Assembly (NCBI GenBank): GCA_964537555.1
Contig: CAZIAD010000001.1
Span: 5,732-69,731 of the forward strand
Reading direction: 5' to 3'
DNA length: 64,000 nucleotides
Source: an uncultured Brevinematales bacterium
Lineage (GTDB): Bacteria; Spirochaetota; Brevinematia; Brevinematales; CAYRWR01
In this document: positions 1 to 30,478 of the stretch, piece after piece
Layout: every line of letters begins with the position of its first letter
Numbering within the stretch: position 1 is the first letter of the stretch
Made by a program: the position numbers and the translations under genes
The notes under the pieces: generated by a model
What the model was told of the DNA's origin: nothing
The model's input: only the letters and a program-made list of their open reading frames with translations
Databases searched by the model: none

Positions 1-72
1 CTTTACCGCTGAGGACGCAAAGGGCGCTGAGTTTGTGGGGCCAGATTCAGGCCTGAGTTGGATTTCTTCGCC

Positions 73-106
73 GACTTTCGACTTTCAACTTTTGACTTTT
101 GACTTA
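73..106. repeat. short tandem repeat (GACTTTY)x5
   Basis: gactttc gactttc aactttt gactttt gactta at the window edge, 3' of the hydrolase gene. Confidence 0.5.
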
Positions 107-186
107 TTCTGCCCGGTGCCTCGGTCTTGGCCGGAAGGTACCAGATGACGGAGAGGCCTGTGATATAGGAGGGATTCAACTATCTC

Positions 187-1584
187 TTACTTCTTTTTAC
201 TGAATAAACACCTGTCTACTTTTAAAAATACATTCTCCTCATTTTCAAAGAACAATATTGTTTCTTTATCAGAAAAATTATATGTGTAGAAGTTCATGCA
301 TTCACTATCATTGTTTTCCGGAAATATAGGGAAATCAAAAGGGTTTTCTTCCCTTAAAATTTTCACAGAAAGATAACCCGACTTATCACTGACTTCAAAT
401 TGATATATATCTTTGTAAGTGGAGTATTTTCCTGTTAATTTTTTCCAGTGTTTTTCCTTTTTATAGGCATAATTATTTTTCATGGGATCCACTCCAAGGT
501 ATGCCTGTAGTAGAGCTGTAGTGTGCCTAAAATAGGGAGAGGAAGAAGCATTGGAAAGAAGAATGACACCTGCCTCTAATTCCGGCAACAAAATAATTTG
601 AGTTGTGTAATTTGCGGTAGCTCCCCCGTGCCTGACAACTTTTTTTCCGTGAAAATCTGACAATAAAACCCAACCCAGGCCATATCCCTCACTCTTTGCC
701 TCTGGCATTGATAAAGCAAAATCATCTGAATAACTGTGTTTAGCAGTAAGATCATCCCAAGATTTCTTATTTTGTAATAAACTTTTATCCTGAGTCATCA
801 CTGCCTGAACATATTTCGCCAGATCCGGTATATTGCTTGTGATACCACCTGCCGCATAAAGATTGTTATCTATAGTTCTCTGGATAGCTAATATTGCTTT
901 AGCCTTGTTTACATAGCCTTTGGCTAATTCCGGGTTTTCCAGAAAATCCTTTTCATCTATGAAACTGGAATTCTTCATTTCCAAAGGAGTAAAAATATTT
1001 TGTGTGATATAGTCTTTATATTTCATTCCGGACAAGTCCTCAATGATAAATCCTAATAGATCATACCCTCCATTAAAATAGAAAAATTGCTCCCCGGGTG
1101 CAAACTGTACCTCATCTTGTGCGTTATTTATAAATCGCATAATGTCATCTCTACTGCTCATTGGGATGATGGGAATGTCTTTTTCGTCATCAGTAAAATA
1201 ATTGATTTTTACTGCTGTATCCAGGGCAGGAATTCCACTGGAATGACTGAGGAGGTGTTTTATAGTGATGGGTTTATCTTTATCACCAAGGGTAAAATCA
1301 AGATGTCTGGAAACAGGGTCATTGATATCCAGCAGGCCTTTCTCTGATAACTGAAGTATAGCGATAGCTGTGAATGCCTTGGTACACGATCCAATTCCGA
1401 ATACACTGTTTATAGTTATCGGTTCATTGGTACTCCTGTCTTTTGTGCCAAAACATGCTTCATATTTGATTTCACCTTTTTCTATTAGAGCCACAACTGT
1501 TCCGGGTATTCTACTCGTTGCCATATTATCCGCGATTTTATCTTCAAAAATGGGTATAAATTTCTGCAATTCTGTCTGATTCAT
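187..1584 (-). CDS. serine hydrolase of the beta-lactamase/penicillin-binding-protein (class C-like) family
   Basis: 465-aa ORF; SxxK active-site motif (GSCTKAF) near the N-terminus, fold-level resemblance to AmpC/esterase family VIII. Confidence 0.75.
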   Translation of the reverse strand: MNQTELQKFIPIFEDKIADNMATSRIPGTVVALIEKGEIKYEACFGTKDRSTNEPITINSVFGIGSCTKAFTAIAILQLSEKGLLDINDPVSRHLDFTLGDKDKPITIKHLLSHSSGIPALDTAVKINYFTDDEKDIPIIPMSSRDDIMRFINNAQDEVQFAPGEQFFYFNGGYDLLGFIIEDLSGMKYKDYITQNIFTPLEMKNSSFIDEKDFLENPELAKGYVNKAKAILAIQRTIDNNLYAAGGITSNIPDLAKYVQAVMTQDKSLLQNKKSWDDLTAKHSYSDDFALSMPEAKSEGYGLGWVLLSDFHGKKVVRHGGATANYTTQIILLPELEAGVILLSNASSSPYFRHTTALLQAYLGVDPMKNNYAYKKEKHWKKLTGKYSTYKDIYQFEVSDKSGYLSVKILREENPFDFPIFPENNDSECMNFYTYNFSDKETILFFENEENVFLKVDRCLFSKKK

Positions 1585-1770
1585 AGATATCTCCTTCTAG
1601 TGAAAGTAAATTCTTTATATTTTATTTCATAAAACTCATTTTCCATGTAATAGATGCCGCTTTATGCACCTCCATTAAAGATAACAGATAGGGTGACAGT
1701 GATTGTTCCTTATCCATTTCTTCAAATCTAATCACCGAGAGGCCTGTGTTGTATTATGGGCATTTATTAT

Positions 1771-2508
1771 TCACTTTATCATTTTTCCAAAATAGATATA
1801 AGAACTTAGGCTATAGAAGTACTCTTCCTTCTCATCTAGATCTTTCATTTCCTTAATGATCTTCAGATGGTCTTCGGACCCTATGACCCCTTTTTCCACA
1901 AGGGCATTAAGGTCCATCATTCGGTCGAATCCGTACGAGCCTTCTTCAAATCTGGTTTCAATGAGGTTGAAGATCTCGGGCTGACCCTGAAATCTGCCTG
2001 AACTTTGGAAGAATCCCCACAGCTTACGGCCCATCATTCCGTCACAGGCATCCATCCAGCCTTGTTCCCAGTCTGCAAATCTGTGCACAAAGTCCCGGAT
2101 CAAATCCTTGTTTTCTGAATTCCAGACCTGTGTGTCCCAATCCCAGTGGGCAAACAGAACCCGGCCTCCCGGTTTAAGAATACGGCACAATTCTTCCAGC
2201 AGCACTGTCTTGTCAGGGATACACTCCAGTACATCTACAGAAAGGATAACATCGAAGCTGTTGTCCGGGAAATCAAAGGCATCAACAAATTTTTGGACTT
2301 TGAAGTCTATACCGGGAAAATGCTCAGAGGCATAATCCTGTGATTCAGGCAGAGAATTCGTTCCGATCAGGATGCTGTTGGGTGAAACATGTTTCTTTAC
2401 TTCTCCCAGGAGCTGGCCATTACCGCAGCCAAAGTCGAGGATGCTATAATCCATATCCTTATCCAGGTTCAAAAGTTCGATTATTCTTTGGCTGAGATGA
2501 TGTTTCAT
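1771..2508 (-). CDS. class I SAM-dependent methyltransferase
   Basis: 245-aa ORF with glycine-rich SAM motif I (LDFGCGNGQLL) followed by acidic motif II region. Confidence 0.75.
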   Translation of the reverse strand: MKHHLSQRIIELLNLDKDMDYSILDFGCGNGQLLGEVKKHVSPNSILIGTNSLPESQDYASEHFPGIDFKVQKFVDAFDFPDNSFDVILSVDVLECIPDKTVLLEELCRILKPGGRVLFAHWDWDTQVWNSENKDLIRDFVHRFADWEQGWMDACDGMMGRKLWGFFQSSGRFQGQPEIFNLIETRFEEGSYGFDRMMDLNALVEKGVIGSEDHLKIIKEMKDLDEKEEYFYSLSSYIYFGKMIK

Positions 2509-2645
2509 CTGACACTCCCTGAAGGCCTAAAAAGTATTAGCCTCTCTTTTTTATCTATTAAGACCAGATCCAACCAGCCTGGCAAATGAAGTGAGGACAT
2601 TGCGCGGCAATAGTAGCGTCTGTGTCCTGCATTGAATTTGCTCAA

Positions 2646-3203
2646 TCACATTTTAAAATCTTTTTTAATGATTGAATACATTTTATAATTATGAAAAGTA
2701 CCATTATTATCAGGAGCATAATGTCTTAAGTTCCCTTCATACTTCATTTCTACTTTTTCTAATACTTTTTCAGAAGCAGTATTACTCTCATTAACAGTTG
2801 CCTGGACCCTTTCAAATCCTACATCGATTAAAAGAAATCTTATGATTTCTTTCAGTGCTTCTGTCATTATACTTTTATTCCAATATTTTTTTGAAATGCA
2901 ATAGCCTATCTCACATCTTTTATCTCTATCAGAACAATCTATTACTCCCACTGAGCCTATAACCTGATTATCCTCTTTATATTTTATTGCCCATTGATAC
3001 GACTCGGCATTGTCATATTCTTTGACCCAGGTATTTATTACACTCTTAGTTAGCTCAATATTTTCATGCGCCTTCCAGGTTAAGTATTTTGCTACCTCAT
3101 CATCGGAGGCCCAATTATTGAACATATTTTCAGAATCTTCTACTTTGAATTTTCTCAATATTAATCTCTTCGTCTCAATTTCTTTTGTTCCTAAATGATT
3201 CAT
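2646..3203 (-). CDS. GNAT family N-acetyltransferase (RimJ/RimL-like)
   Basis: 185-aa ORF; N-terminal 'ETKRLILRKF...YLTW' pattern typical of RimL-type GNATs. Confidence 0.7.
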   Translation of the reverse strand: MNHLGTKEIETKRLILRKFKVEDSENMFNNWASDDEVAKYLTWKAHENIELTKSVINTWVKEYDNAESYQWAIKYKEDNQVIGSVGVIDCSDRDKRCEIGYCISKKYWNKSIMTEALKEIIRFLLIDVGFERVQATVNESNTASEKVLEKVEMKYEGNLRHYAPDNNGTFHNYKMYSIIKKDFKM

Positions 3204-3245
3204 AAATTACTCTCTCATTTAATATTCCGCTACGGAACAGTCAAA

Positions 3246-3776
3246 CTATTTAACTCTAGCGTAAACTTTACAATCTCGCGGAATCAAGGAGATATTAGGA
3301 TGTATTATCCATTTTCTCAAGGTCCCTTCAAGTTCCATACCCAGTTTTTTCATGACACGTCCTGATGCAGGGTTATCTATATCGTGAACTGCCCAAATTC
3401 TCTGGATCTCAGGAATATTATATATCCAATTAAATACAGGGATTAATGCTTCAGTCATCAAACCTTTGTTCCAGTATTTTTTTGCTAATGCGTATCCAAA
3501 ATCAGCTTTAAATCCGTCTACTCTAAAATCAAGCATGCCAATGATCTCTTCTGCTTCTTTTAAATGAATCACAAAAGGAAATGCTTTACCAGTATCCCAG
3601 CTAGCAATTGCCATTTTAAGAAACTCTTGAATGGTTGATATTTTTTCATGTGGAGTCCAGGTGAGATATTTTACAACATCTGAGTCCTGGGCATAGTTCT
3701 TAAATATATCTTTCGCATCATTAAGGTCCGGTTTTCTTAAAATCAGTCGCTCAGTTTCAAATATCATATTTCTCAC
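3246..3776 (-). CDS. GNAT family N-acetyltransferase (paralog of upstream gene)
   Basis: 176-aa ORF; 'ETERLILRKP...YLTWTPH' plus conserved 'KKYWNKG(L/I)MTEAL' motif shared with 2646..3203. Confidence 0.7.
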   Translation of the reverse strand: MRNMIFETERLILRKPDLNDAKDIFKNYAQDSDVVKYLTWTPHEKISTIQEFLKMAIASWDTGKAFPFVIHLKEAEEIIGMLDFRVDGFKADFGYALAKKYWNKGLMTEALIPVFNWIYNIPEIQRIWAVHDIDNPASGRVMKKLGMELEGTLRKWIIHPNISLIPRDCKVYARVK

Positions 3777-3898
3777 CTGTATCAGGAATAATTTATCTTA
3801 TTCTAACTATCCTCTCCAAAATAATCCAGCATCCCGGCGTTACAGCGCCTTAAGGCCGACTCCTGTCCTGAGTTTATCAGATGTAAACAAATAAAAAC

Positions 3899-3927
3899 TT
3901 GACACACTAACGAACGTTAGCTATTAT
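3899..3927 (+). promoter_or_regulatory. sigma70-like promoter (TTGACA-17-TATTAT) with embedded palindromic operator CTAACGAACGTTAG (3907..3920) upstream of the TetR gene
   Basis: -35 TTGACA 3899-3904, -10 TATTAT 3922-3927, inverted repeat ctaacg-aa-cgttag between them; SD aaagggg before ATG 3956. Confidence 0.55.
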
Positions 3928-3955
3928 TTATATAGATAAAGGCAAAGGGGAAAGT

Positions 3956-4573
3956 ATGTCACCTAAACAGGCAGATACCAAAGAGCGAATATTTGAGACC
4001 GCTGTGGAGCTGTTTGCCACCCGGGGCTACCATGCCACCAGCATCCGGGACCTGGCGAAGGCAGTGGGAATAAAAGAGAGCTCCATCTACAACCATTTTT
4101 CGGGTAAGAGCGCCATCCTGGATGCTATACTGGAGTACCAGATGGAGGGATTCCGCTCACTGGGGGAGAACATCCGGGTACCCGCACTGGAGGATCCATC
4201 CATCCATGACGCGCTGACTCTGTGGATGAGCGCGTCCCAGGCCTATGTCCAGTACCAGCCCCCCTTGTCGGAGAAGATCTCCCGCATCCTGCTCAATGAG
4301 ATGTTTCTGCATGAAAAGTGCCGGGAGTTTGTGCTGGAGATCATGTTTAATATTCAGAAGGACATTACGGAAAAACTCCTGGTGGAACTGCAGCGCAGGG
4401 GATTGATCCGGGATATTGATATCCATGAGACCGCCCTGGAGTATGTCTATATGATACACGGGATGGATGTGGAAAACCGTCTCTTACTACTGGAGGGCCA
4501 TGACCCCCTGGCGCTGAGGCAGAAGCTGTTTGATCATGTGCGTCACTTTATTCAGGGTATCAGTAAGGACTGA
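3956..4573 (+). CDS. TetR/AcrR family transcriptional regulator
   Basis: 205 aa; N-terminal HTH signature 'RGYHATSIRDLAKAVGIKESSIYNHF'. Confidence 0.85.
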   Translation: MSPKQADTKERIFETAVELFATRGYHATSIRDLAKAVGIKESSIYNHFSGKSAILDAILEYQMEGFRSLGENIRVPALEDPSIHDALTLWMSASQAYVQYQPPLSEKISRILLNEMFLHEKCREFVLEIMFNIQKDITEKLLVELQRRGLIRDIDIHETALEYVYMIHGMDVENRLLLLEGHDPLALRQKLFDHVRHFIQGISKD

Positions 4574-21229: not shown

Positions 21230-22603
21230 ATGTTAGTATTATTAGTGATCACAATCCTGATCTCATCTTGTGCCAGTCCCGCTCCGGACTTATTTGTAAT
21301 AGAAGATTATCCCTGTGTGACCAATACCGGGACCCGTTATTATGTGGATGCCAGCCTGGGCAGCGATTCTAATGACGGGAGTATAAGCTCCCCCTGGAAG
21401 ACTGTGGCTAAGGTCAATAGTTTTACCTTCAGCCCGGGTGATAATATACTCTTTAAAAAAGGGGAGCAATGGCGGGAAAGAATAATCCCCCAGTCCGGAT
21501 ACAGGACGGGCTGGCTGTTCTACGGCAGCTATGGTGCCGGAAGTGCTCCCACCTTCATCGGCTCGGTCAACCGCAGCCAGGCCAGTGACTGGACCGACAC
21601 CGGGGGCAATATCTGGACCTGTAATACCCCCACTTCTGAAGATATTGGAAATATCATCTTTAATAACGAGGCATCTGTGGGCTATAAAAAGTTCAGTGCC
21701 GGGGCATTGGTATCACAGGGGGATTTCTATTACAACCCCGCCAATGGTGTGCTCAGTCTGTACTCGGGGGGCAATCCCGGCTCAGTGTACACCGACATAG
21801 AATGCGCCCTGGCCCAGCACATGGTCTATATCCCCCACGGCACCTATCCTCATATAGGGGCAGTCAGTGTCAGCAACATCGTGTTCAAGGGCCTGGCCTT
21901 TAAGTACGGCGGGGCTTATGCCTTTAAGTTTCAGAGTGTGCACCACATCTTTGTGCTGGACAACGAGATCAGCTGGATGGGGGGCGGTGAAGTCGACGGC
22001 CAGGCAGATGTACGCTACGGCAACGGGGTGGAGTTCTTTGACTACGCCTATTACTGTAAGGCCAATGGAAACCGGATCTGGGAGATCTATGACTCCGGCC
22101 TGTCGGTGCAGGGAATAGAAAATGCCACAGCCGCAGTAGGCATAGAATTTAAAGACAATATCATCTGGAACTGCGCCTATGCCAGCTACGAACTGTGGTA
22201 TAAATACGGCAGCGGTGGTGAAGAATCTGTACTGTCTAAGATCACCTTTATCAATAATATATGTTCCAATGCCGGGGGAGGCTGGGGTAGTCAGCGTCCG
22301 GGTAACGGGGGATTTCATGTCCTCATGGACCGCACCCTGGCCCAGAGTTCTCAAATCGTGATCAGCAATAACAGCTTTGTCAATACCGGGACGGTGATGC
22401 TGGCCGTAAATCAGGACTTCGACAATCTCTCTTCAGTACTGATGGATTACAACTCCTACAGTTCTCCCACCAATGCTTTATTGTACTATTACTTCAGCAC
22501 TGCAGGCGGGTCTCCGGTAGTAGTCCAGCAGTACCAGCTGTCCCAGTCCAACAGCTACCAGGCATTTAGCGGGAAGGATGCTCATTCCCGCTTTAGTTAT
22601 TAA
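21230..22603 (+). CDS. secreted/lipoprotein right-handed parallel beta-helix (pectate-lyase-fold) protein
   Basis: 457 aa; lipobox ILISSCAS; repeated 'N-x-I/V-x-N' beta-helix rungs (NNICSNAGGG, ISNNSFVNTG). Confidence 0.55.
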   Translation: MLVLLVITILISSCASPAPDLFVIEDYPCVTNTGTRYYVDASLGSDSNDGSISSPWKTVAKVNSFTFSPGDNILFKKGEQWRERIIPQSGYRTGWLFYGSYGAGSAPTFIGSVNRSQASDWTDTGGNIWTCNTPTSEDIGNIIFNNEASVGYKKFSAGALVSQGDFYYNPANGVLSLYSGGNPGSVYTDIECALAQHMVYIPHGTYPHIGAVSVSNIVFKGLAFKYGGAYAFKFQSVHHIFVLDNEISWMGGGEVDGQADVRYGNGVEFFDYAYYCKANGNRIWEIYDSGLSVQGIENATAAVGIEFKDNIIWNCAYASYELWYKYGSGGEESVLSKITFINNICSNAGGGWGSQRPGNGGFHVLMDRTLAQSSQIVISNNSFVNTGTVMLAVNQDFDNLSSVLMDYNSYSSPTNALLYYYFSTAGGSPVVVQQYQLSQSNSYQAFSGKDAHSRFSY

Positions 22604-22660: not shown

Positions 22661-23446
22661 TTATAGAGTCGCTGGAACAGGGAAATAATCTGTTTCCTGT
22701 ACAGGTGCAGACACATAAGGCTGTACATTAGAGATAAACATGCCTTCTGTCATATCAGACTGCCGGAACCGTATAAAAGTATCATCATCAAATACCAGTA
22801 CAAAATGGGTCTCATCCAGGATAGCGCCGTTGGGGGCAATATAATGGGACACCCGGTATACCGCCTTTACTTCATTATATTCCAGGTGTTTTTCCTTAAG
22901 CTGAAAATACGCATTCTGCCTCAATCCGGTTTTTTCAAATGAAGTATACTGATTCAGGCCCAGGATAATAAATACCAGCATCACAGGTACCAGTACATGA
23001 AATATCACTTTTACCACCTTCAGTACATCCAGGGGCATCCATGCTTCATCGACTGTTAAATACAATGCATAATATGCGGGATACACTAACTTTAAAGAAA
23101 GAAGTGCCAGGTAATAGGCAAAAGGAAAAGCCAGGAATATCCCTGCTACCATCCAGTAAGCCGGATCGACACGGATCATAAAAATACACTCCTTCCATGC
23201 GGGGTCATTTAAGGCTGCAATCCAGGCCAGGCCCCTGCTGAACAACAGGATCAGCAGTACCATAGCGATGATGGCAGTCAGGACGACCTGAACATTCATA
23301 CGGGACCTGACAGACTTTTCTATTGCCTTTTTATCCTCTTTATGTGGCCGTGGTCTCAGACTTACCAACAGGGGAAGGGCCCAGGCAGGATATAAGGCCA
23401 AAACAACAACAAAGATCCAGCAGTATTGATTCATACATTTCTCCAA
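22661..23446 (-). CDS. integral membrane protein of unknown function
   Basis: 261 aa; 4-5 predicted TM helices then soluble C-terminal domain. Confidence 0.5.
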   Translation of the reverse strand: MEKCMNQYCWIFVVVLALYPAWALPLLVSLRPRPHKEDKKAIEKSVRSRMNVQVVLTAIIAMVLLILLFSRGLAWIAALNDPAWKECIFMIRVDPAYWMVAGIFLAFPFAYYLALLSLKLVYPAYYALYLTVDEAWMPLDVLKVVKVIFHVLVPVMLVFIILGLNQYTSFEKTGLRQNAYFQLKEKHLEYNEVKAVYRVSHYIAPNGAILDETHFVLVFDDDTFIRFRQSDMTEGMFISNVQPYVSAPVQETDYFPVPATL

Positions 23447-23497: not shown

Positions 23498-24562
23498 CTA
23501 TTTTCCCACTTTATCCATATTCAACAGTAAAAATCTTTGGCTTCTGATGTTTTTACTATTCCCATCCACTGTAATAGTGAGAGTGTCACTGAATAATGAC
23601 TCTGTTTTTTTAGTCTTTGAATCCGTCCATCCCCCATCCGAGGTATAGGCATTATGGGCTTCCCAGTACCTTTTGCTGCTTTCTGTGTGCAGGCCGTAGA
23701 TCTTCAGCACTATTTTATTTCCGGACTGGGAGGCTATACTCCAGTTCCCTTTGAATACATCCTCAAACACATCATATTCTACTTTGAATCCCCCATTGTT
23801 GTCGAGGTCTTTAAACAGCTCCCTGATCTCACTTTCGGGCTGAGTAGAGTTCCACTGGCTGATCTCTATCTTAAAGCTGCCCGTAGAGCTAAAGTAAGCT
23901 TTGTAGCTTTTTTTATTCTTAATGTCTGGGTGAGTTGATTTTTCCTCTTTCACTATATCGGTATCCAGGGCTGCTGTAAAGGGATGCTTAGCCAGCTGTT
24001 CCCTGAAGTACTGCCTCAGTTCATCCTCAAAAGAAGTCTGTAATTCCCGGTAGCTGCTGTCATCTCCCAACTTGATCTCAGATATACAGGTATCCTGATA
24101 CTGGGTCCCGGGGTAGACTGAGTCTATTCTGATCTCGATAGTCCTGACCCCTGCCTGAAATCCCAGAGGCACTGCCTGGTATTCCATATTATCCTTGAGG
24201 GTCTTTTTTATGATCTCGGTGCCATTTATAGTAACAGTAATGGCCCGGGGACGGCTGTTTTTAGTAAAATGGGAGGCTGACCTCTGGTAGCCATTGGCTA
24301 TGTAGAGCACCGAGATGTCCTGGCTCTGCTCCAGGGTGATCTTGATAGTACTGCCTATGCCCTGTCCCCGGTCCCCTTCTACCCAGGCCCGGAACAGACT
24401 GTCATCACACAGAAATCCTGCACCATAAGAGCTGAAAGGATCCAGGGTTGAGCTGGCTGTGATGGTAGCCCGGACAGAGCCGGTATACTCCAGGTTTTCC
24501 AGTGTCATTGGATAGACGCGGGAGATCATTAACACCGAAAGAATAAAGACGAACTGTTTCAT
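23498..24562 (-). CDS. secreted protein with N-terminal discoidin/galactose-binding-like domain
   Basis: 354 aa; signal peptide; 'DDSLFRAWVEG...GIGSTIKITL...YIANGY...ISEIKL' jelly-roll pattern. Confidence 0.5.
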   Translation of the reverse strand: MKQFVFILSVLMISRVYPMTLENLEYTGSVRATITASSTLDPFSSYGAGFLCDDSLFRAWVEGDRGQGIGSTIKITLEQSQDISVLYIANGYQRSASHFTKNSRPRAITVTINGTEIIKKTLKDNMEYQAVPLGFQAGVRTIEIRIDSVYPGTQYQDTCISEIKLGDDSSYRELQTSFEDELRQYFREQLAKHPFTAALDTDIVKEEKSTHPDIKNKKSYKAYFSSTGSFKIEISQWNSTQPESEIRELFKDLDNNGGFKVEYDVFEDVFKGNWSIASQSGNKIVLKIYGLHTESSKRYWEAHNAYTSDGGWTDSKTKKTESLFSDTLTITVDGNSKNIRSQRFLLLNMDKVGK

Positions 24563-24700: not shown

Positions 24701-25189
24701 TTAACCCCGCATGAGTGCTACTTTACCGGTGCGGGCCATTTCCTTGATCTCATAATCCTTGAGCAGGTTGACGATGGCATCGATCTTATTGGAATTTCCA
24801 GTGACCTCGATAGCAATAATATCCTGGGATATATCTACCACATGGCCTTTGAAAATATCCGCGATCTCGATGATCTCTTTCCGCTTCTGGGGATCTATGT
24901 TGACCTTGATCAGGGCCAGCTCCCGGGAGATATAGTCGGTATCCGTGAGGTCACGGACCTTGATGACCTCTATCAGCTTATTGAGCTGCTTTTTTACCTG
25001 GTCGATAATGCGGTCGTCTCCCTCTACTACGATAGTCATAATAGAAGCGGTGGGGTCCTCAGTCTCAGACACAGTCAGCGAAGCGATGTTATATCCCCGG
25101 GCTGAAAACAGTCCGGATATACGGGACAGGACTCCAAAGTGGTTTTCGACCAGAACGGATAGTGTGTGCCTGTTGGTATCTTTTATCAT
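24701..25189 (-). CDS. ilvH: acetolactate synthase small (regulatory) subunit
   Basis: ORF 24701..25267; functional start at the Met overlapping the ilvB stop (ATGA); ACT-domain 'HTLSVLVENHFGVLSRISGLFSARGYNI'. Confidence 0.85.
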   Translation of the reverse strand: MIKDTNRHTLSVLVENHFGVLSRISGLFSARGYNIASLTVSETEDPTASIMTIVVEGDDRIIDQVKKQLNKLIEVIKVRDLTDTDYISRELALIKVNIDPQKRKEIIEIADIFKGHVVDISQDIIAIEVTGNSNKIDAIVNLLKDYEIKEMARTGKVALMRG

Positions 25190-26916
25190 GCCATCCCTCC
25201 TATAACCTGAGTCAGACTGGCTCCGGCAGGAACCATGGGGAATACATTTTCTGTGGTATCGGTCCATACATCCATGAGGTAAGGGCCTTTGTGAGCCAGC
25301 ATCTCTTTGTAGGCATCTTCCAGTTCTTCGGGTTTAGTGACCCTGCGGGACTTGATGCCGTAGGCTTCACCCAGTTTTACAAAGTCGGGGTAATACTCCC
25401 CGGTCGGTGCGGTGTCCTTGCCTTTACCCAGCAGTACTCCGGAATAGCGGTTCTCATAGAACAGCTGCTGCCACTGCCGTACCATACCCAGATACTGGTT
25501 ATTCAGGATGATGATCTTGATATCAATATCATAAGTACTTACGGTTGCCAGCTCCTGAACATTCATCTGTATGGAACCGTCACCGGCTACACAGATGACT
25601 GTCTCTTTGGGCAGGGCTACCTTGGCCCCGATAGCCGCGGGCAGGGCGAATCCCATAGTCCCCAGTCCACCGGAGTTGATCCACTTATGGGTGTCTTTAA
25701 ACTGGTAGTACTGGGCTAGCCACATCTGGTGCTGTCCTACGTCACCGACTACGATTGCATCGGAGTGAGTGACCTTGTCCAGCAGCTCGACGGCATACTG
25801 GGGCTTTATGATCTCGGTGGAGTTTTTGTATCCCATGGGATGCTCTTTTTTCCAGTCTTTGATCTGGGCCTTCCAGTCGTCGATCTTCGCTTCTTTGACG
25901 ATCTTATTCAGTTCTTTGAGCACTTCTTTTACATCTCCGACTATGGGTATGTCTACCTTTACAGTCTTGGAGATAGAGGCAGGATCGATGTCGATATGGA
26001 TGATCTTGGCAAAGGGTGCGAATTCATCGATCTTACCGGTAACACGGTCGTCGAAACGACTGCCGATGGCTATGATAAGGTCTGAATGGGAGATAGCATA
26101 GTTAGCATAGACGGTACCATGCATACCCAGCATTCCCAGGTAGTGTTCATCATCATAGACATTAGGATAGGCTCCCAGCCCCATCAGGGTAGAAGTCACA
26201 GGGATCTTGGTCTTTTTGACCAGTTCCTTGAGCTCTTCCTGGGCACGGGACAGTACCACACCACCGCCATAGTAGATGATAGGCTTTTTAGCTTCGGCGA
26301 TCATATCCGCTGCTTTTTTGACCTGTCCGGCGTGGGGCTTGGTACTGGGTTTGTAGTTGCGCAGCTCGACGGTATCGGGCCATACGACTTCTACTTTTGC
26401 GTTCTGGACATCCTTGGGTATATCGATCAGTACAGGGCCGGGACGTCCGGTAGAGGCGATGTGAAAGGCCTCCTTGACGATGCGGGGAATGTCCGCCGCA
26501 TCCTTGATCAGGTAGTTGTGCTTGGTCACAGGGCGGGTGATGCCTGTGATGTCTGCTTCCTGAAATGCGTCGCTGCCGATGGCATAGGTAGGTACCTGTC
26601 CGGTGATAGCGACTATGGGAATGGAATCCATGTTGGCTGTGGCCAGTCCGGTAACGAGGTTGGTCGCTCCGGGCCCACTGGTGGCCAGACATACACCGAC
26701 TTTACCGGTGGCTCTGGCGAATCCTTCCGCATTATGAGCACTGCCCAGTTCGTGACGAACCAGGTAGAGATCGATGTCTTTGGCATCATAGAGTACATCA
26801 AAGATAGGTATGACTGACCCTCCGGGGTATCCGAAGATGGCAGTGACCTTTTCCCGTCTCAAGCTTTCGATGAGTAATTGTGCGCCTGTCATTTCCACTT
26901 TCTTTCTCCTTAACAT
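25186..26916 (-). CDS. ilvB: acetolactate synthase large (catalytic) subunit, biosynthetic type
   Basis: 576 aa; TPP-binding 'GDGSIQMNVQEL', FAD-binding region; the true start may be the internal Met (MTGAQLL, 26892). Confidence 0.9.
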   Translation of the reverse strand: MLRRKKVEMTGAQLLIESLRREKVTAIFGYPGGSVIPIFDVLYDAKDIDLYLVRHELGSAHNAEGFARATGKVGVCLATSGPGATNLVTGLATANMDSIPIVAITGQVPTYAIGSDAFQEADITGITRPVTKHNYLIKDAADIPRIVKEAFHIASTGRPGPVLIDIPKDVQNAKVEVVWPDTVELRNYKPSTKPHAGQVKKAADMIAEAKKPIIYYGGGVVLSRAQEELKELVKKTKIPVTSTLMGLGAYPNVYDDEHYLGMLGMHGTVYANYAISHSDLIIAIGSRFDDRVTGKIDEFAPFAKIIHIDIDPASISKTVKVDIPIVGDVKEVLKELNKIVKEAKIDDWKAQIKDWKKEHPMGYKNSTEIIKPQYAVELLDKVTHSDAIVVGDVGQHQMWLAQYYQFKDTHKWINSGGLGTMGFALPAAIGAKVALPKETVICVAGDGSIQMNVQELATVSTYDIDIKIIILNNQYLGMVRQWQQLFYENRYSGVLLGKGKDTAPTGEYYPDFVKLGEAYGIKSRRVTKPEELEDAYKEMLAHKGPYLMDVWTDTTENVFPMVPAGASLTQVIGGMA

Positions 26917-27060
26917 TAAAAAAGAAATGCCTTATATTTTCTAACACATTGGCTTACTTGTCAATTATTGGGCTGGTATAGGCCCCTAAATCTATGCGCT
27001 TCAGGCCTTTACCATGAATCTGAGGGCAGAATGGACTCCTTGCCTCATAATTTCCTCCTT

Positions 27061-27093
27061 AAAAAGAAAAACCCCGTCTTCTGTAAAGACGGG
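27061..27093 (-). terminator. attenuator (rho-independent) terminator between leader peptide and ilvB
   Basis: minus-strand hairpin ccccgtctt-tacag-aagacgggg followed by tttttcttttt. Confidence 0.75.
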
Positions 27094-27117
27094 GTCGAAA
27101 TTTTCCACTTATTGTTT

Positions 27118-27216
27118 TCTAAACAACACCCGCCAGGCCATTCACTACGACTACCACCACTACGACAACTACAAGAAGAACATCAGCGATGCAAAAGCGG
27201 GTTAATAATGCTTTCA
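27118..27216 (-). CDS. ivbL: ilvB leader peptide, Val-rich (MKALLTRFCIADVLLVVVVVVVVVVNGLAGVV)
   Basis: 32-codon ORF with 10 consecutive Val codons, SD aagga 7 nt upstream, followed by the terminator hairpin; resembles E. coli ivbL (…AAVVVVRVVVVVGNAP). Confidence 0.75.
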
Positions 27217-27241
27217 TTATTTTTCCTTGGTTTAGTAAATA

Positions 27242-27270
27242 ATAATAACATTCCTACAGATTTGTGTCAA
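27242..27270 (-). promoter_or_regulatory. sigma70-like promoter for the ilv leader (TTGACA-17-TATTAT)
   Basis: minus-strand TTGACA at 27265-27270 and TATTAT at 27242-27247, about 25 nt upstream of leader ATG. Confidence 0.55.
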
Positions 27271-27330: not shown

Positions 27331-27360
27331 TAAAAACTCCGGTGAGGTTTCACCGGAGTC
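27331..27360 (-). terminator. rho-independent terminator after the outer-membrane protein gene
   Basis: hairpin actccggtga-ggttt-caccggagt, T-run on minus strand. Confidence 0.65.
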
Positions 27361-27377: not shown

Positions 27378-28715
27378 TTATTGCAGCCTAAAACCAAAGC
27401 CCATTTCAAAACCAAATTTGATTTCCTGCATAATGAATGCCTGTCTGTTTGCAGGAATGGACGCCGGATCATTCCAGAAAAACTGATTCTGATCGGTAGT
27501 CAGGACCATGCCATTATTCATAATCTGTGGAGAAGCATCCAGAGAGAGGAAGAATCCATACTGCCAGTAGGGCACTTTAAGATTATTTATAGTGAATTTA
27601 ATACCGGAGAAGCTCCATCTGCGTCTCTGTATCCAGCGGATAGCAAAATGAGAATTAAATACTAGTGCATTAAATTCATCAGAAACTGGTGTTATGTCTG
27701 AATCATTATATCCCAGGTAGAATGTTTTTAAACCCACTCCCGCCTCCAGGGAAAGCGTAGTAAAATGTTTCGAGTTTATCCGGGATCTGAGGTTAATGGC
27801 CAGACCGACATTACCGGAAATAGTATTGAACATAAAATTCCCTCGTGAGATATTGAGAAAATCAAGGTTTCCGACTATACCCCATAACCAGTGGGGATTA
27901 ATACTTTTATTCCATCGTACATCCACACCGAATACGGATGGATTACTGGCAATACCGGGATCATAATCATAAAAATCTATAATGCTCACTAAGGAATTCA
28001 TAGGATTGAAATTTGAAGTATAGGGACTAAATTCCAGTGATTTCATAGTGTAGGGAGCAGCCAGAAATTCCTGAAAGACAGATGTATATTTATTCACAGC
28101 AGCCAGTCTCGTTCCCATCATAAGATCCAGAAGAAATGCTTCCGGTTTCTTTCTATATACAGACTTTGTTGCGTAACTTACTGTAGTAAAGTTTTCTATC
28201 ATAAATGACGTTGATTTCCAGACCCTCAAGCCCTTGTCATTTATCAGGGACCATTGTCCCATCAGCCATACTTCACTCCAGGTATAACCCATACCACTTT
28301 GAGCAACATCTTTCAGGGATACATCCAGTATCATAATATTTTTACCAGGATATTGTTGCTTTAATTTCTTGGTACTGGTTTTTCTATAATTATTCGAGAC
28401 CACTTCCAGTTTTACAAATACTGGTTCTAAGCCTTTTGTGTCGTATAATTGATTTAGGCTTAGACTGTAATTGGACACCTGATGTAACAGAGTGACATAA
28501 TTTGATTCAATAAATGTCAGATATATGCCAGCCGCTTCTTTTTGATTCATATTAAATTTCAAAATCCGGAAAAAATAATCTTCATCGAAATTTATTCGTG
28601 TCAGCAGCACTACATCTTGAGAACTTTTTACCAGTTTTGAATGAGACGGGATAGCAAAAGAATGCGAAAAAGCAAACAAAAACACAATAATACACAATAT
28701 CTTAACTTTAACCAT
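27378..28715 (-). CDS. predicted outer-membrane beta-barrel protein of unknown function
   Basis: 445 aa; signal peptide; alternating amphipathic beta pattern; C-terminal ...FGFRLQ aromatic terminus. Confidence 0.55.
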   Translation of the reverse strand: MVKVKILCIIVFLFAFSHSFAIPSHSKLVKSSQDVVLLTRINFDEDYFFRILKFNMNQKEAAGIYLTFIESNYVTLLHQVSNYSLSLNQLYDTKGLEPVFVKLEVVSNNYRKTSTKKLKQQYPGKNIMILDVSLKDVAQSGMGYTWSEVWLMGQWSLINDKGLRVWKSTSFMIENFTTVSYATKSVYRKKPEAFLLDLMMGTRLAAVNKYTSVFQEFLAAPYTMKSLEFSPYTSNFNPMNSLVSIIDFYDYDPGIASNPSVFGVDVRWNKSINPHWLWGIVGNLDFLNISRGNFMFNTISGNVGLAINLRSRINSKHFTTLSLEAGVGLKTFYLGYNDSDITPVSDEFNALVFNSHFAIRWIQRRRWSFSGIKFTINNLKVPYWQYGFFLSLDASPQIMNNGMVLTTDQNQFFWNDPASIPANRQAFIMQEIKFGFEMGFGFRLQ

Positions 28716-28812
28716 AACAACCTCACAGATATTTTATATATTTTAACATTAATTCAGTTAAAAATCAAATCAATAGTCTCAGTATTTAAAAAAGCACGGA
28801 CAAGAAATAGCA

Positions 28813-28848
28813 AAAAGCCCCGGATGTTTTACCAGTCCGGGGCCTTTT
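28813..28848. terminator. bidirectional rho-independent terminator
   Basis: hairpin gccccgga-tgttttaccag-tccggggc followed by ctttt. Confidence 0.6.
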
Positions 28849-28956
28849 GCATGAGTGAAGAGGTGTTTTGGAGGGTTGTATGAAAAATTGTTGTTGTCCA
28901 ATTTAATAGATAAGAGACAAGGGGGCTGAAAACGGTTAGATACATACCAGTTTTAT

Positions 28957-29289
28957 TTAAATGAGTGTTTGAAGGTCTTTAATTAGGACAGGAATATTAT
29001 TGATAATAGTATCCCATACTATGTCATCACTTAGGGCATCATATCCATGAATGATAACATTTCTAAAACCAATAATTTCTTTCCAGGAATTCACAGAAAT
29101 CAGGATTTCTTCATTCATTTTAAATACTCTATTGAAAGCTTCGCCGATTATCTCAAATTGTCTTTCTACAGCAGATTGTGTTTTTAAATCATTTCGATAT
29201 TCTTCAAAACTCATATTTAAAGTAAATTCCTTTATTAAAAGAGCTGCATTTAGAGCATCTTCCAGGCAGACTTTTGGGTCATGCAGCAT
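28957..29289 (-). CDS. hepT: HepT-like (DUF86) toxin RNase of a HepT/MntA toxin-antitoxin pair
   Basis: 110 aa; Rx4HxY motif 'FRNVIIHGY'. Confidence 0.8.
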   Translation of the reverse strand: MLHDPKVCLEDALNAALLIKEFTLNMSFEEYRNDLKTQSAVERQFEIIGEAFNRVFKMNEEILISVNSWKEIIGFRNVIIHGYDALSDDIVWDTIINNIPVLIKDLQTLI

Positions 29290-29575
29290 AAAGTTCTCTG
29301 GTTTTATTATAAATATTTTGTTTCAGTCGTGCGTTTTTAATGGCATCTGGCATAAGAAGATCAACCGGTCTTTTCAGAATTAATTCCAGCTCACTTTTTA
29401 ATGCCATATATCTATGTAGACCATTAGTTGAATGGGATAATTCCAGTAGAAAATCCACATCGCTATTCTTTTGAAATTCTTTAGTTAATGCACTGCCGAA
29501 TAGAGTCAGTTTTTTTACTTCATACTTTTCGCACAGTGATTTAATTCTGTCCAGATAGGGTTCGATTTTCAACAT
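29279..29575 (-). CDS. mntA: MntA-like minimal nucleotidyltransferase antitoxin
   Basis: 98 aa; 'FGSALTKEFQKNSDVDFLLE' GSx(n)DxD nucleotidyltransferase motif; 11-nt overlap with hepT. Confidence 0.8.
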   Translation of the reverse strand: MLKIEPYLDRIKSLCEKYEVKKLTLFGSALTKEFQKNSDVDFLLELSHSTNGLHRYMALKSELELILKRPVDLLMPDAIKNARLKQNIYNKTRELYAA

Positions 29576-29632
29576 TCATTATTCCTTGATTAATGATACA
29601 GGATAATGAAATGGAGGTCAAGATTCTACTAA

Positions 29633-30478
29633 TTAATTATCCTGTGTCCTGGCCAGGCTGATGTGATCCTCTTCTATGACAATCAGGCGTTGTTTGTACA
29701 GCACCCCGATCGCTTTTTTAAAGGCCTTTTTACTGACCCCGAAGGCCCGGGAGATATCGTCAGGATCGCTCTTGTCCGACAGGGGGAGAGTGCCGCCCCG
29801 CTCCCGGAGACGTTCCAGGATGACCTGGGACAGGTCCTTGACCTGGCCGAAGCCCTGCTTCTGCAGAGCCAGGTCGATCTTTCCGTCCTCCCGGATATTC
29901 TTGATATAGCCGGTGAGACGATCTCCCACCTGGACCTTTTTGAAGATGTCGTTATAAAAGATGACCCCGGAGTGGGTGTTATTGATGATGGCCTTGTAGC
30001 CCAGGTCGGTAGCATAGGCGATCATGAGGTCCACCTCCTGGCCTACTTCATAGTCTCCCCCTGTTTTTTCCAGCTCAAAATCGATCTTGGAGCTGGCGGC
30101 CAGGCGGTCGCTCACTTCATCGTGGTAGATAAATACGACATAGTACTTTCCCACCTGCATTTTCTCTTTCTGCTCCTTGAAGGGCACAAAGAGATCCTGG
30201 GGCAGGCCCCAGTCCAGAAAGGCTCCTATTTCAGTAGCGGCCTTACACTGCAGGCAGGCAAATTCTCCTACCTGACCCTTGGGCATGTGTGGTGTGGCTA
30301 CCAGGCGCTCCAGGGGGTCCAGGTAGATAAAGACATCGATCTCATCACCCTCGCTTAGAGGCTTTTCCAGGAAGACCCGGGGTATAAGGACCTCACCCAG
30401 CTCACCGGCATCCACAAAGGGGCCGAAGTCAGTGACCTTGATGACGGGTAGTACCTGGCTCTTGCCCAGCTGTGCCAT
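29633..30478 (-). CDS. cvfB: CvfB/YitL-like S1-domain RNA-binding protein
   Basis: ORF 29633..30514; likely start at MAQLGK; tandem S1-like segments and C-terminal winged-helix-like region. Confidence 0.6.
   Translation of the reverse strand: MAQLGKSQVLPVIKVTDFGPFVDAGELGEVLIPRVFLEKPLSEGDEIDVFIYLDPLERLVATPHMPKGQVGEFACLQCKAATEIGAFLDWGLPQDLFVPFKEQKEKMQVGKYYVVFIYHDEVSDRLAASSKIDFELEKTGGDYEVGQEVDLMIAYATDLGYKAIINNTHSGVIFYNDIFKKVQVGDRLTGYIKNIREDGKIDLALQKQGFGQVKDLSQVILERLRERGGTLPLSDKSDPDDISRAFGVSKKAFKKAIGVLYKQRLIVIEEDHISLARTQDN

What the first reader, a model, noticed from the sequence alone, without database searches (positions are those of the whole stretch)
27001..27270. Unannotated poly-Val leader peptide, attenuator and promoter upstream of ilvB-ilvH
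On the minus strand a TTGACA-17-TATTAT promoter (27242-27270) drives a 32-codon ORF at 27118-27216 (MKALLTRFCIADVLLVVVVVVVVVVNGLAGVV) with a good SD. It is followed by a perfect intrinsic terminator (ccccgtctt-tacag-aagacgggg + U-run, 27061-27093) ahead of ilvB. Ten consecutive Val codons preceded by Leu/Ile codons is the hallmark of branched-chain amino-acid transcription attenuation (compare E. coli ivbL ...AAVVVVRVVVVVGNAP). The peptide falls below the ORF-track cutoff.
Basis: partly seen in the sequence, partly recalled or inferred. Interest (0 to 1): 0.55.

Follow-up and report, generated by a model that had tools for sequence, protein, structure and literature searches.

The report
Valine leader-peptide attenuator before ilvB
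A 32-codon mini-gene with ten valine codons in a row, followed by a terminator hairpin that can be disabled by an alternative RNA pairing, sits upstream of the acetolactate synthase genes of an uncultured spirochaete; it is a well-supported but ordinary example of classical amino-acid-sensing transcription attenuation, plus an unexplained second mini-ORF and a second promoter.

Summary
On the minus strand there is a TTGACA-17-TATTAT promoter (27270..27242). It precedes an SD plus a 32-codon ORF (27217..27119, MKALLTRFCIADVLLVVVVVVVVVVNGLAGVV). A 12-bp terminator with a U-tract follows (27096..27061), then ilvB (26898..25186) and the ALS small subunit gene.

The Val run is unique in the window (expected 7.5e-9). 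An antiterminator can be drawn: GGCGGG (27134..27129, last codons of the ORF) pairs with CCCGUC in the terminator 5' arm.

Five related loci carry V/I/L-rich leaders ahead of an ALS gene. Four are full length and show the same geometry: stop codon 21-23 nt before the terminator arm, and segment 2 at or near the stop. One uses entirely different sequences.

A ribosome-position folding model shows the terminator arm is sequestered while the ribosome sits in the V/I/L run. It is freed once the ribosome reaches the stop.

This is a new member of a known kind. It has no Rfam match and no similarity to E. coli or Leptospira leaders. The host is a Brevinematia-like spirochaete.

Attenuation therefore probably controls only part of ilvB transcription.

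The parts
27336..27359 (-). Hairpin plus T-run that ends the upstream 445-aa gene (27378..28715). It insulates the leader promoter from upstream transcription.
   Evidence: One search found the inverted repeat ACTCCGGTGAGGTTTCACCGGAGT. One search shows it on the minus strand followed by TTTTTATTT, directly after the stop of the upstream ORF.
27242..27270 (-). Promoter P1: TTGACA-17-TATTAT with a TG extended -10. The inferred start site is near 27235.
   Evidence: 11 of 12 matches, TG present. Equivalent promoters precede the orthologous leaders: TTGACA-17-TACAAT in L082, TTGACT-17-TATACT in L085, TTGACA-17-TAATAT in L091 and a TTGACA promoter in L033 (alignment A1). The start site is inferred, not mapped.
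27224..27228 (-). Shine-Dalgarno AAGGA of the leader ORF, 6 nt before the ATG.
   Evidence: Read. AAGGA is conserved in alignment A1.
27119..27217 (-). Leader peptide ORF: 32 codons plus stop, MKALLTRFCIADVLLVVVVVVVVVVNGLAGVV*.
   Evidence: V/I/L-rich ORFs of about 30 codons occur at the same place in L082, L085, L090, L091 and L033.
27143..27181 (-). Regulatory codon run: Val-Leu-Leu followed by ten Val codons (codons 13-25).
   Evidence: the only such run in the window, with 7.5e-9 expected by chance.
27196..27202 (-). Segment 1 (ACCCGCU, codons 6-8), which can pair with segment 2. Its role is uncertain.
   Evidence: Minimum-free-energy folds. The 1:2 duplex is reached by 60 of 2000 shuffles. 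Analogous CCCGC/CCGCG segments occur in L082 and L085.
27129..27134 (-). Segment 2 (GGCGGG, codons 28-30), the 5' strand of the antiterminator. It ends 7 nt before the stop codon, so a ribosome at the stop covers it.
   Evidence: folds with a ribosome mask; duplex -16.0 kcal/mol; ribosome-position scan.
27061..27096 (-). Intrinsic terminator. Segment 3 is the 5' arm (27096..27085), the loop is 27084..27082, segment 4 is the 3' arm (27081..27070), and the U-tract runs to 27061. Bases 27093..27088 (CCCGUC) are the 3' strand of the antiterminator.
   Evidence: 12 pairs, 6 G-C; -18.3 kcal/mol.
27001..27060 (-). Strong SD AAGGAGG (27060..27054) plus a 15-codon mini-ORF (27048..27001, MRQGVHSALRFMVKA*) directly after the terminator. 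It is conserved in the four closest loci. Function unknown.
   Evidence: Sequence. The SD is invariant and the ORF is 13-15 codons in L082, L085 and L090 (alignments A1 and A2). In L091 this slot starts a truncated ALS paralog.
26930..26969 (-). Invariant promoter-like block 'P2': AATAATTGACA-N8-AATGTG-N2-AGAAAATATAAGG, with TTGACA 66 nt before the ilvB start codon.
   Evidence: TTGACA-17-GAAAAT, 10 of 12 matches. It is the most conserved non-coding block in alignment A1. In alignment A4 it aligns with the only promoter of leaderless relatives. Promoter activity is inferred.
25186..26898 (-). ilvB, acetolactate synthase large subunit. GTG start, with SD AAGGAG at 26911..26906.
   Evidence: TIGR00118, 836 bits. 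The 570-aa product from the GTG start exists as an exact gene call.
24701..25189 (-). ilvN/ilvH, acetolactate synthase small subunit. The start probably overlaps the ilvB stop.
   Evidence: NF008864, 224 bits. The start is inferred from the 4-nt overlap seen in L082.

Best explanation
This is a ribosome-mediated (leader-peptide) transcription attenuator that senses charged tRNA-Val, and to a lesser degree tRNA-Leu and tRNA-Ile. It controls read-through from promoter P1 into ilvB-ilvN.

Proposed sequence of events:
1. RNA polymerase starts near 27235.
2. A ribosome loads at AAGGA and translates the 32-codon leader.
3. When Val-tRNA is plentiful, the ribosome runs through the 13-codon V/L run to the stop codon (27121..27119). 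There its footprint covers segment 2 (GGCGGG, 27134..27129).
4. Segment 3 (27096..27085) is then free to pair with segment 4 (27081..27070). The hairpin plus U-tract releases the polymerase near 27061-27070.
5. When Val-tRNA is scarce, the ribosome stalls in the Val run. Segment 2 emerges uncovered and pairs with CCCGUC of segment 3 before segment 4 is made.
6. The terminator cannot form, and transcription continues through the mini-ORF and the P2 block into ilvB-ilvN.

Shown here: every sequence element, the alternative pairings, their conservation and their geometry.

Inferred: the transcription start, translation of the leader, stalling, and the regulatory outcome.

A second, conserved promoter-like block (P2) lies downstream of the terminator. 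The most likely design is therefore basal ilvB transcription from P2 plus a starvation-induced boost from P1.
For: The elements are present and the Val run is not chance.

Folding with a 30-nt ribosome mask, on transcripts cut before the terminator 3' arm:
- Mask on codon 13 or 15 (the start of the V/L run): the minimum-free-energy structure contains the 2:3 antiterminator.
- Mask on the stop codon: segment 2 is blocked and only the terminator forms in the full transcript.

Ribosome-position scan, in which only RNA 3' of the footprint may fold. The table gives the probability that the terminator 5' arm is sequestered.

| Locus | A site in the V/I/L run | After the run |
|---|---|---|
| window | 99-100% up to V24, 46% at V25 | 35-62% at codons 26-32, 7% at the stop |
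| L082 | 100% (59% and 18% at its last two codons) | 9% at the stop |
| L085 | 100% (45% at its last codon) | 26-33% |
| L091 | 100% | 4% |

In these four leaders the switch point falls at or just after the end of the codon run.

2:3 duplexes against 2000 shuffles of segment 2's neighbourhood:

| Locus | Energy (kcal/mol) | Shuffles reaching it |
|---|---|---|
| window | -16.0 | 85 |
| L082 | -16.1 | 5 |
| L085 | -12.6 | 40 |
| L091 | -13.4 | 8 |
| L033 | -17.2 | 2 |
| L090 | -12.5 | 58 |

L091 pairs UUGCGAGUAG with CUGCUUGCAA, an en-bloc compensatory replacement. L085, L090 and L033 extend the GCGGG:CCCGC core with UU:GG, UU:AG and AU:AU.

The distance from the stop codon to the terminator arm is 22, 21, 23, 21 and 23 nt in the five full leaders.

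The hydrophobic runs consist only of V, I and L. These are the three amino acids whose synthesis needs ALS.

The leader is always linked to an ALS gene even though the other neighbours differ.

No terminator-like site lies between 27061 and ilvB on the minus strand.

An upstream-gene terminator insulates P1.
Against: There is no transcript or reporter evidence.

In the window itself the antiterminator core is only 6 bp, one of them G-U. It closes a multiloop, and its shuffle count is modest (85 of 2000).

A stall at the last Val codon or two would already cover segment 2.

When pairing across the ribosome is allowed, a mask at codon 19 gives 1:2 rather than 2:3 as the minimum-free-energy structure.

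The regulatory codons lie in the loop between segments 1 and 2, not inside segment 1 as in the textbook trp case. Without any ribosome the truncated window transcript still favours 2:3 (0.92), so a default-off 1:2 state is not supported for the window.

In L033 the drop after the run is weak (99% to 71%).

The conserved P2 block between terminator and ilvB could make the attenuator quantitatively minor, or a relic.
Confidence: 0.78

Rival explanations
1. Relic attenuator. The P1-leader-terminator module once controlled a second ALS paralog that has decayed; the mini-ORF would be its remnant. ilvB-ilvN is now expressed essentially from its own promoter P2, and the leader has no meaningful effect on it.
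For: In L091 the same module is followed, after an SD and ATG, by a 204-aa ALS N-terminal fragment that is only 53% identical to that genome's own ilvB. The full ilvB comes after it.

In the window clade the same slot holds a 13-15-codon ORF with an invariant strong SD.

P2 is invariant and homologous to the sole promoter of leaderless relatives.

Most relatives at 67-68% ilvB identity have no leader at all.
Against: The leader ORF, its promoter, the V/I/L run and the 2:3 / 3:4 pairings are all maintained across genomes whose ilvB proteins are only 75-83% identical to the window's, while the surrounding non-coding DNA has diverged. That implies continuing selection in the present context.

In L033 the module directly precedes ilvB with nothing in between.

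No terminator separates the attenuator from ilvB, so read-through must reach ilvB.

DNA similarity between the mini-ORF region and the ALS fragment is not significant, apart from the SD/start region of L085.
Confidence: 0.12
2. An independent small hydrophobic membrane peptide gene, for example a type I toxin-like or regulatory micro-protein, with its own promoter and terminator. Under this reading it merely happens to neighbour ilvB.
For: The product has a charged N-terminus followed by a 13-16-residue hydrophobic stretch. The unit has its own promoter, SD and terminator. It has been picked up as a gene by automatic callers.
Against: The hydrophobic run uses only Val, Ile and Leu, with no Phe, Ala, Gly or Met, in all six loci.

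The peptide sequence is otherwise poorly conserved.

Linkage to an ALS gene is kept while the other neighbours change.

The 3' end of the ORF is complementary to the terminator arm in every locus, with compensatory changes and a fixed 21-23-nt spacing.

A 13-residue run is short for a membrane span.
Confidence: 0.05
3. A translation-independent RNA switch upstream of ilvB, such as a ppGpp or other riboswitch, a T-box, or a protein-mediated attenuator. Under this reading the ORF is incidental.
For: ilvB is controlled by ppGpp riboswitches or T-boxes in some other lineages (stated in PMC10272879). A terminator with an alternative pairing is common to all such switches.
Against: No Rfam family matches at its gathering score in the window or in four orthologous loci. 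Nothing relevant appears at E up to 10 in the 2-kb region.

There is no conserved aptamer-like structure. What is conserved is an ORF with a start codon, an SD and a V/I/L codon run whose nucleotide sequence varies freely.
Confidence: 0.03

Closest known systems
E. coli ivbL / ilvBN attenuator (and ilvL of ilvGMEDA): classical leader-peptide attenuation of acetolactate synthase operons
   Same: Both have a short leader ORF of about 32 codons with a long run of Val codons near its 3' part. Both have an intrinsic terminator between the leader and the ALS large-subunit gene, and mutually exclusive terminator and antiterminator pairings read out by ribosome position. The regulated genes are the same (ALS large plus small subunit).
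   Different: There is no detectable sequence similarity: blastn of the leader against 5,426 E. coli genomes found only chance plasmid hits at E = 7. The phylum is different. Here about 165 nt follow the terminator, and they hold a conserved mini-ORF and a second promoter-like block. The regulatory codons lie between segments 1 and 2.
Leptospira 'ilvB motif' (WRC-14-1; Brewer et al. 2021, PMC8632094; reinterpreted as a BCAA-rich uORF by Narunsky et al. 2023, PMC10272879)
   Same: Same phylum (Spirochaetota) and same downstream gene (ilvB). It is a uORF with at least three consecutive Val codons, proposed but not tested as an attenuator.
   Different: Only 7 representatives are known, all in Leptospira. 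Its uORF is shorter: the L. biflexa example reads MPSYTLTTVVLVVVSSTILSFLS. It lies about 70 nt from ilvB. It has a different long-hairpin structure, and I saw no hairpin-plus-U-tract terminator in the example I read. Its local similarity to the window leader is not significant, reached by 93 of 1000 shuffles. No ilvB-named Rfam family appeared among the matches at E up to 10.
ilvB-II motif / ilvBNC uORF attenuator of Corynebacterium, and the ilvB-OMG motif (PMC10272879, PMC11857589)
   Same: These are BCAA-rich uORFs upstream of ilvB acting by transcription attenuation. The Corynebacterium uORF lies about 150 nt upstream of ilvB, a long spacer comparable to the one here.
   Different: The Corynebacterium uORFs are 15-17 codons with four scattered I/L/V positions, not a homopolymeric Val run. 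They are in Actinobacteria. There is no Rfam-level match.
Leucine-rich attenuator peptide of Staphylococcus aureus ilv-leu (PMC5794164) and other Firmicute leader peptides (PMC2965389)
   Same: They show that leader-peptide attenuation of BCAA genes occurs outside Proteobacteria and Actinobacteria and arises repeatedly.
   Different: Different lineage and different peptide. In S. aureus it is combined with CodY control. I did not compare it at the sequence level here.

Membership tests
Ribosome-mediated (leader-peptide) transcription attenuators of amino-acid biosynthesis operons | A short translatable ORF (start codon plus SD) in the 5' leader of a biosynthetic operon, with its own promoter | tested here: met
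   ATG 27217 with AAGGA 6 nt upstream. Promoter matches 11 of 12 positions. ALS genes lie downstream.
Ribosome-mediated (leader-peptide) transcription attenuators of amino-acid biosynthesis operons | Tandem codons for the amino acid(s) made by the regulated pathway, beyond chance | tested here: met
   Ten consecutive Val codons inside a 13-codon V/L run. It is unique in the window, with 7.5e-9 expected. Orthologous leaders carry runs made only of V, I and L.
Ribosome-mediated (leader-peptide) transcription attenuators of amino-acid biosynthesis operons | An intrinsic terminator between the leader ORF and the first structural gene | tested here: met
   12-bp stem plus U-tract, 27096..27061, folding at -18.3 kcal/mol.
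Ribosome-mediated (leader-peptide) transcription attenuators of amino-acid biosynthesis operons | An alternative pairing that sequesters the terminator 5' arm and is itself blocked by a ribosome at the leader stop codon | tested here: met
   27134..27129 pairs with 27093..27088. The terminator arm is 99-100% sequestered with the ribosome in the run and 7% with it at the stop. The shuffle count for the window alone is modest, 85 of 2000.
Ribosome-mediated (leader-peptide) transcription attenuators of amino-acid biosynthesis operons | Conservation of the ORF and the alternative structures in relatives, with compensatory change | tested here: met
   Five further loci. L091 has wholly different segment 2 and terminator sequences that still pair. 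L085, L090 and L033 extend the core with UU:GG, UU:AG and AU:AU. Stop-to-arm spacing is 21-23 nt. A formal column-wise covariation count was not possible, because MAFFT misaligned segment 2.
Ribosome-mediated (leader-peptide) transcription attenuators of amino-acid biosynthesis operons | Read-through increases in vivo when the cognate aminoacyl-tRNA is limiting, and depends on leader translation | not testable with these tools
   The organism is uncultured and no transcript data were available.
Curated Rfam leader / ilvB-associated RNA families (e.g. Leu_leader, Thr_leader, His_leader, Trp_leader, Phe_leader, ilvB-associated motifs) | A covariance-model score at or above the family's gathering threshold | tested here: not met
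   No match at gathering score in the window or in L033, L082, L085 and L091. The best leader-type match is Phe_leader at 18 bits against a threshold of 55, E = 7.7.
Leptospira ilvB motif (WRC-14-1) | Sequence and structure similarity to the published alignment; uORF about 70 nt upstream of ilvB | tested here: not met
   Local alignment to the L. biflexa representative is reached by 93 of 1000 shuffles. Here the uORF stop lies 220 nt upstream of the ilvB start. Only one representative was compared.
E. coli ivbL/ilvL leaders (homology) | Detectable nucleotide similarity | tested here: not met
   blastn (word size 11) against all complete E. coli genomes found no chromosomal hit.

The most novel reading that the evidence does not exclude
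The locus may be a composite, re-targeted control region rather than a plain attenuator.

Under this reading, an attenuator that originally served a second ALS paralog was captured by ilvB after that paralog decayed. The paralog is still visible as a 204-aa fragment in L091.

The capture would have left a selectively maintained, translated mini-ORF (27048..27001) that acts as a relay. It might, for example, keep ribosomes on the read-through RNA to prevent Rho-dependent termination or decay.

The attenuator would also sit in series with the ancestral promoter P2. The clade-specific invariant AATGTG in the P2 spacer might be a regulator site.

If so, this would be a documented case of attenuator exaptation and of a two-promoter design: basal expression plus a starvation boost.
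Probability: 0.2. Interest if true: 0.5.

Novelty: new member of a known kind. Interest (0 to 1): 0.35.

Why it matters
It adds a clearly structured, terminator-based leader-peptide attenuator to a deep-branching, uncultured spirochaete lineage (Brevinematia-like). For this phylum only a weakly characterised Leptospira uORF motif had been proposed, and no Rfam model covers the element.

It gives annotators a concrete small ORF and cis-regulatory element to label.

It also supports the view of Naville & Gautheret (2010) and Narunsky et al. (2023) that BCAA leader peptides arise repeatedly upstream of ilvB.

The patchy distribution among close relatives is useful for studying how attenuators are gained, lost or re-targeted. 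Some relatives have the leader, others have only the plain promoter, and one carries a truncated ALS paralog in the slot.

This is incremental. It does not open a long-standing question.

Tried and rejected
- **Genome scan with the ilvB protein.** It did not identify the source genome. Scanning those 80 loci did later turn up the L033 leader.
- **Metagenome scan with the P2 block.** No hits.
- **Metagenome scan with the L085/L090 leader 3' end.** None is a V/I/L leader followed by a terminator.
- **Homolog search with the L091 ALS fragment.** The aim was to find a full-length paralog carrying the leader. It returned only partial ALS sequences of up to about 64% identity from other phyla, so it was uninformative.
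- **Test of the mini-ORF as a relic of the ALS fragment's 5' end.** Local DNA alignment against shuffles was not significant for the window, L082 or L090. Only the SD/start region of L085 stood out (1 of 1000).
- **Consensus fold of the terminator-to-ilvB region.** Only a weak 5-bp hairpin over the mini-ORF start (-5.6 kcal/mol). I did not pursue it.
- **MAFFT alignment of the six leader 3' regions, intended for the column-wise pair counter.** Segment 2 sits at different offsets from the stop codon in different clades and was misaligned. I compared pairings per sequence instead.
- **Automatic terminator picking.** It over-extended A-U stems and mis-picked L091. I used only its L090 value; the other values come.
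- **Rfam, tRNA scan, blastn against E. coli, comparison with the Leptospira motif.** All negative.
- **CodY-box reading of the P2 block.** About 9 of 15 matches by eye and the wrong phylum. Dropped.
Full report
**1. The observation**

- The promoter scan finds TTGACA (27270..27265), a 17-nt spacer and TATTAT (27247..27242). That is 11 of 12 consensus positions, with TG one base upstream of the -10 hexamer.
- AAGGA (27228..27224) lies 6 nt before an ATG at 27217.
- The ORF 27119..27217 translates to MKALLTRFCIADVLLVVVVVVVVVVNGLAGVV*.
- A 12-bp hairpin with 6 G-C pairs and a 3-nt loop spans 27096..27070, followed by UUUUUCUUUUU to 27061. It folds at -18.3 kcal/mol.
- The run VLLVVVVVVVVVV is the only run of at least 5 Val or at least 7 V/I/L in the six-frame translation of the whole window. 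The expected number of V10 runs is 7.5e-9.
- Downstream, 25186..26898 is the biosynthetic acetolactate synthase large subunit (TIGR00118, 836 bits). 24701..~25189 is the small subunit (NF008864, 224 bits).
- The next gene, 23498..24562, is not ilvC. It carries an NADase-type F5/8 glycan-binding domain.
- The upstream 445-aa gene ends with its own hairpin and T-run at 27359..27336. P1 is therefore an insulated start point.

**2. Whose genome**

The ilvB product exists as an exact gene call on a 176-kb NCBI contig. The closest named ilvB homologs (65-67% identity) and the closest named MnmE homologs (45-51%) come from Brevinematia, Brevinematales and 'Spirochaetes bacterium' MAGs, and from Thermospira aquatica. 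Brevinematia is a class of Spirochaetota. The window is a normal chromosomal stretch carrying yidC, mnmE, guaA, pgi and proA. The host is an uncultured, deep-branching Brevinematia-like spirochaete. This placement rests on two proteins only.

**3. Relatives**

I fetched the DNA around the closest ilvB homologs.

| Locus | ilvB identity to window | Leader peptide | After the terminator |
|---|---|---|---|
| L082 | 83% | MKDFFKNLLPAVVLVVVVVIVVVVVVPSGGIFL* (a called 33-aa gene) | mini-ORF, P2, ilvB |
| L085 | 76% | MKLSLNRVLSSQIFSIVVLVVVIIVQNIAG* (TTG start) | mini-ORF, P2, ilvB |
| L090 | 75% | ...VVIIVQKIAG* (contig cut at the 5' end) | mini-ORF, P2, ilvB |
| L091 | 68% | MNFQNAKIRLFSVVLIVVVVIMNKECFCE* | truncated ALS paralog, then ilvB |
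| L033 | 56% | MKSVINSRNFLSLSNLVVLLVLVVLLCLNKNAG* | ilvB directly |

L033 is a 'Spirochaetes bacterium' MAG. It was the only locus among 80 phylogenetically scattered ilvB loci with a V/I/L ORF followed by a terminator.

Five other relatives at 67-68% identity (L086, L092, L094, L095, L096) have no leader, only a plain promoter. The leader is therefore real, conserved and patchily distributed. The hydrophobic runs contain only Val, Ile and Leu.

**4. The alternative structure**

With a 30-nt ribosome mask on codon 13 or 15 (the start of the V/L run), and the transcript ending before the terminator 3' arm, the minimum-free-energy fold pairs GGCGGG (27134..27129) with CCCGUC (27093..27088). That helix encloses a small hairpin over the stop codon. 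With the mask on the stop codon, segment 2 is blocked and the terminator forms in the full transcript.

The same holds for L082 (CGGCGGG:CCCGCCG), L085 (GCGGGUU:GGCCCGC), L091 (UUGCGAGUAG:CUGCUUGCAA) and L033 (UGCGGGAU:AUCCCGCA).

Counts of 2000 shuffles of the segment-2 neighbourhood that reach the observed duplex energy:
- window: 85
- L082: 5
- L085: 40
- L091: 8
- L033: 2
- L090: 58

L091 keeps the pairing with unrelated sequences. L085, L090 and L033 extend the common core with UU:GG, UU:AG and AU:AU. The distance from stop codon to terminator arm is 22, 21, 23, 21 and 23 nt in the five full leaders.

A scan of ribosome positions, in which only RNA 3' of the footprint may fold, gives the probability that the terminator 5' arm is sequestered.
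- Window: 99-100% for every A-site position up to Val-24, 46% at Val-25, and 7% at the stop.
- L082: 100% through most of the run (59% and 18% at its last two codons), falling to 9% at the stop.
- L085: 100% (45% at its last run codon), falling to 26-33%.
- L091: 100% falling to 4%.
- L033: a weaker drop, 99% to 71%.

In four of five leaders the switch point sits at or just after the end of the V/I/L run. A starvation sensor needs exactly this arrangement.

**5. Weak points of the mechanism**

- The window's antiterminator core is short (6 bp), and its individual shuffle statistic is modest.
- A segment 1 (ACCCGCU, 27202..27196) can pair with segment 2 in full-length folds (60 of 2000 shuffles). 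The regulatory codons lie in the loop between segments 1 and 2, not inside segment 1.
- Without a ribosome the truncated window transcript still prefers 2:3. I do not claim a default-off 1:2 state.
- When pairing across the ribosome is allowed, a mask at codon 19 gives 1:2. Whether such a helix can form around a ribosome is a matter of sterics that the folding program cannot judge.

**6.

About 165 nt separate the terminator from ilvB, and they are not empty.

Directly after the U-tract comes an invariant strong SD (AAGGAGG, 27060..27054) and a 15-codon ORF (27048..27001, MRQGVHSALRFMVKA*). L082, L085 and L090 have the same arrangement, with 13-15 codons ending in [MT]VK. Frame, SD and stop are kept, but the peptide changes freely: by my count, L085 and L090 differ by six non-synonymous and two synonymous changes.

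Next comes the most conserved non-coding block of the whole region, AATAATTGACA-N8-AATGTG-N2-AGAAAATATAAGG (26969..26930). Its TTGACA lies 66 nt before the ilvB start. In alignment A4 it lines up with the TTGACA...AATAT promoter that is the only upstream signal in the leaderless relatives.

The simplest reading is that this block is the ancestral ilvB promoter (P2) and is still in use. The attenuator would then modulate only the transcripts that start at P1. No terminator-like site lies between 27061 and ilvB on the minus strand, so read-through transcripts do reach ilvB.

**7. Origin**

In L091 the slot after the terminator holds an SD and ATG that open a 204-aa ORF. That ORF is an ALS N-terminal (TPP_enzyme_N) fragment, 53% identical to that genome's own ilvB and 54% to the window's. 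This suggests the module once served a second ALS gene, and that the mini-ORF may be what is left of it.

The DNA-level test is not significant except around the SD/start region of L085. A homolog search with the fragment was uninformative. I keep this as a hypothesis. In L033 the module sits directly before ilvB, so the opposite history is equally possible.

**8. Comparison with what is known**

The mechanism is the classical one known from E. coli ivbL/ilvL.

Leader-peptide control of ilvB has also been shown or proposed in:
- Corynebacterium (the ilvB-II motif);
- Mycobacterium;
- Staphylococcus;
- the multi-phylum ilvB-OMG motif;
- within Spirochaetota, a 7-member Leptospira 'ilvB motif' with at least three consecutive Val codons.

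(PMC10272879, PMC8632094, PMC5794164)

Naville & Gautheret (PMC2965389) already argued that such leaders arise repeatedly.

The element here is not a sequence member of any described family.
- Rfam gives nothing at gathering score in the window or in four orthologous loci. Phe_leader at 18 bits is noise.
- blastn against all complete E. coli genomes finds no chromosomal hit.
- The L. biflexa motif shows no significant similarity and a different architecture.

**9. Verdict**

It is a new member of a known kind, and interest is moderate to low. What is not routine is the conserved mini-ORF and the promoter-like block between attenuator and gene, together with the patchy presence or absence among close relatives.

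Noticed in passing
window 27001..27060 (-): An invariant strong SD (AAGGAGG) plus a 15-codon mini-ORF (MRQGVHSALRFMVKA*) lies directly after the attenuator terminator. It is conserved in position, frame and length in L082, L085 and L090, but the peptide sequence is poorly conserved. Its function is unknown.
   Followed up: partly
window 26930..26969 (-): A 40-nt block (AATAATTGACA-N8-AATGTG-N2-AGAAAATATAAGG) in which all but the N positions are invariant lies between the attenuator and ilvB. It is homologous to the sole promoter of leaderless relatives. The invariant AATGTG in its spacer is found only in the four window-clade loci that carry the block, and might be a regulator site.
   Followed up: partly
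L091 715..1329 (+): A 204-aa ORF consisting only of the ALS N-terminal TPP-binding domain, 53% identical to the same genome's ilvB. It sits between a V/I/L leader-attenuator and the full ilvB, so it is a truncated ALS paralog or pseudogene.
   Followed up: partly
window 28957..29575 (-): A HepT-like RNase plus nucleotidyltransferase (MNT) toxin-antitoxin pair. The same kind of pair lies directly upstream of ilvB in the leaderless relative L086. Relative to that arrangement, the window has the 445-aa gene and the leader module in between.
   Followed up: no
window 27378..28715 (-), 22661..23446 (-), 21230..22603 (+): Three sizeable ORFs (445, 261 and 457 aa) around the ilv genes have no convincing Pfam or NCBIfam match. 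The only hit is a sub-threshold one of the 457-aa ORF to a Leptospira surface-protein family.
   Followed up: no
window 23498..24562 (-): The gene after ilvN is not ilvC, although ilvC follows ilvN in L085, L086 and L096. It encodes a protein with an NADase-type F5/8 (discoidin-like) glycan-binding domain. ilvC is missing from this operon in the window and in L082.
   Followed up: no
window 1..4000 and 62001..64000: G+C is 36-38% at both ends of the window, against 44-53% over most of it. 28001..30000, which holds the toxin-antitoxin pair, is also low at 37%.
   Followed up: no
whole window: The 64 kb contain no tRNA gene and no Rfam family at gathering score.
   Followed up: yes
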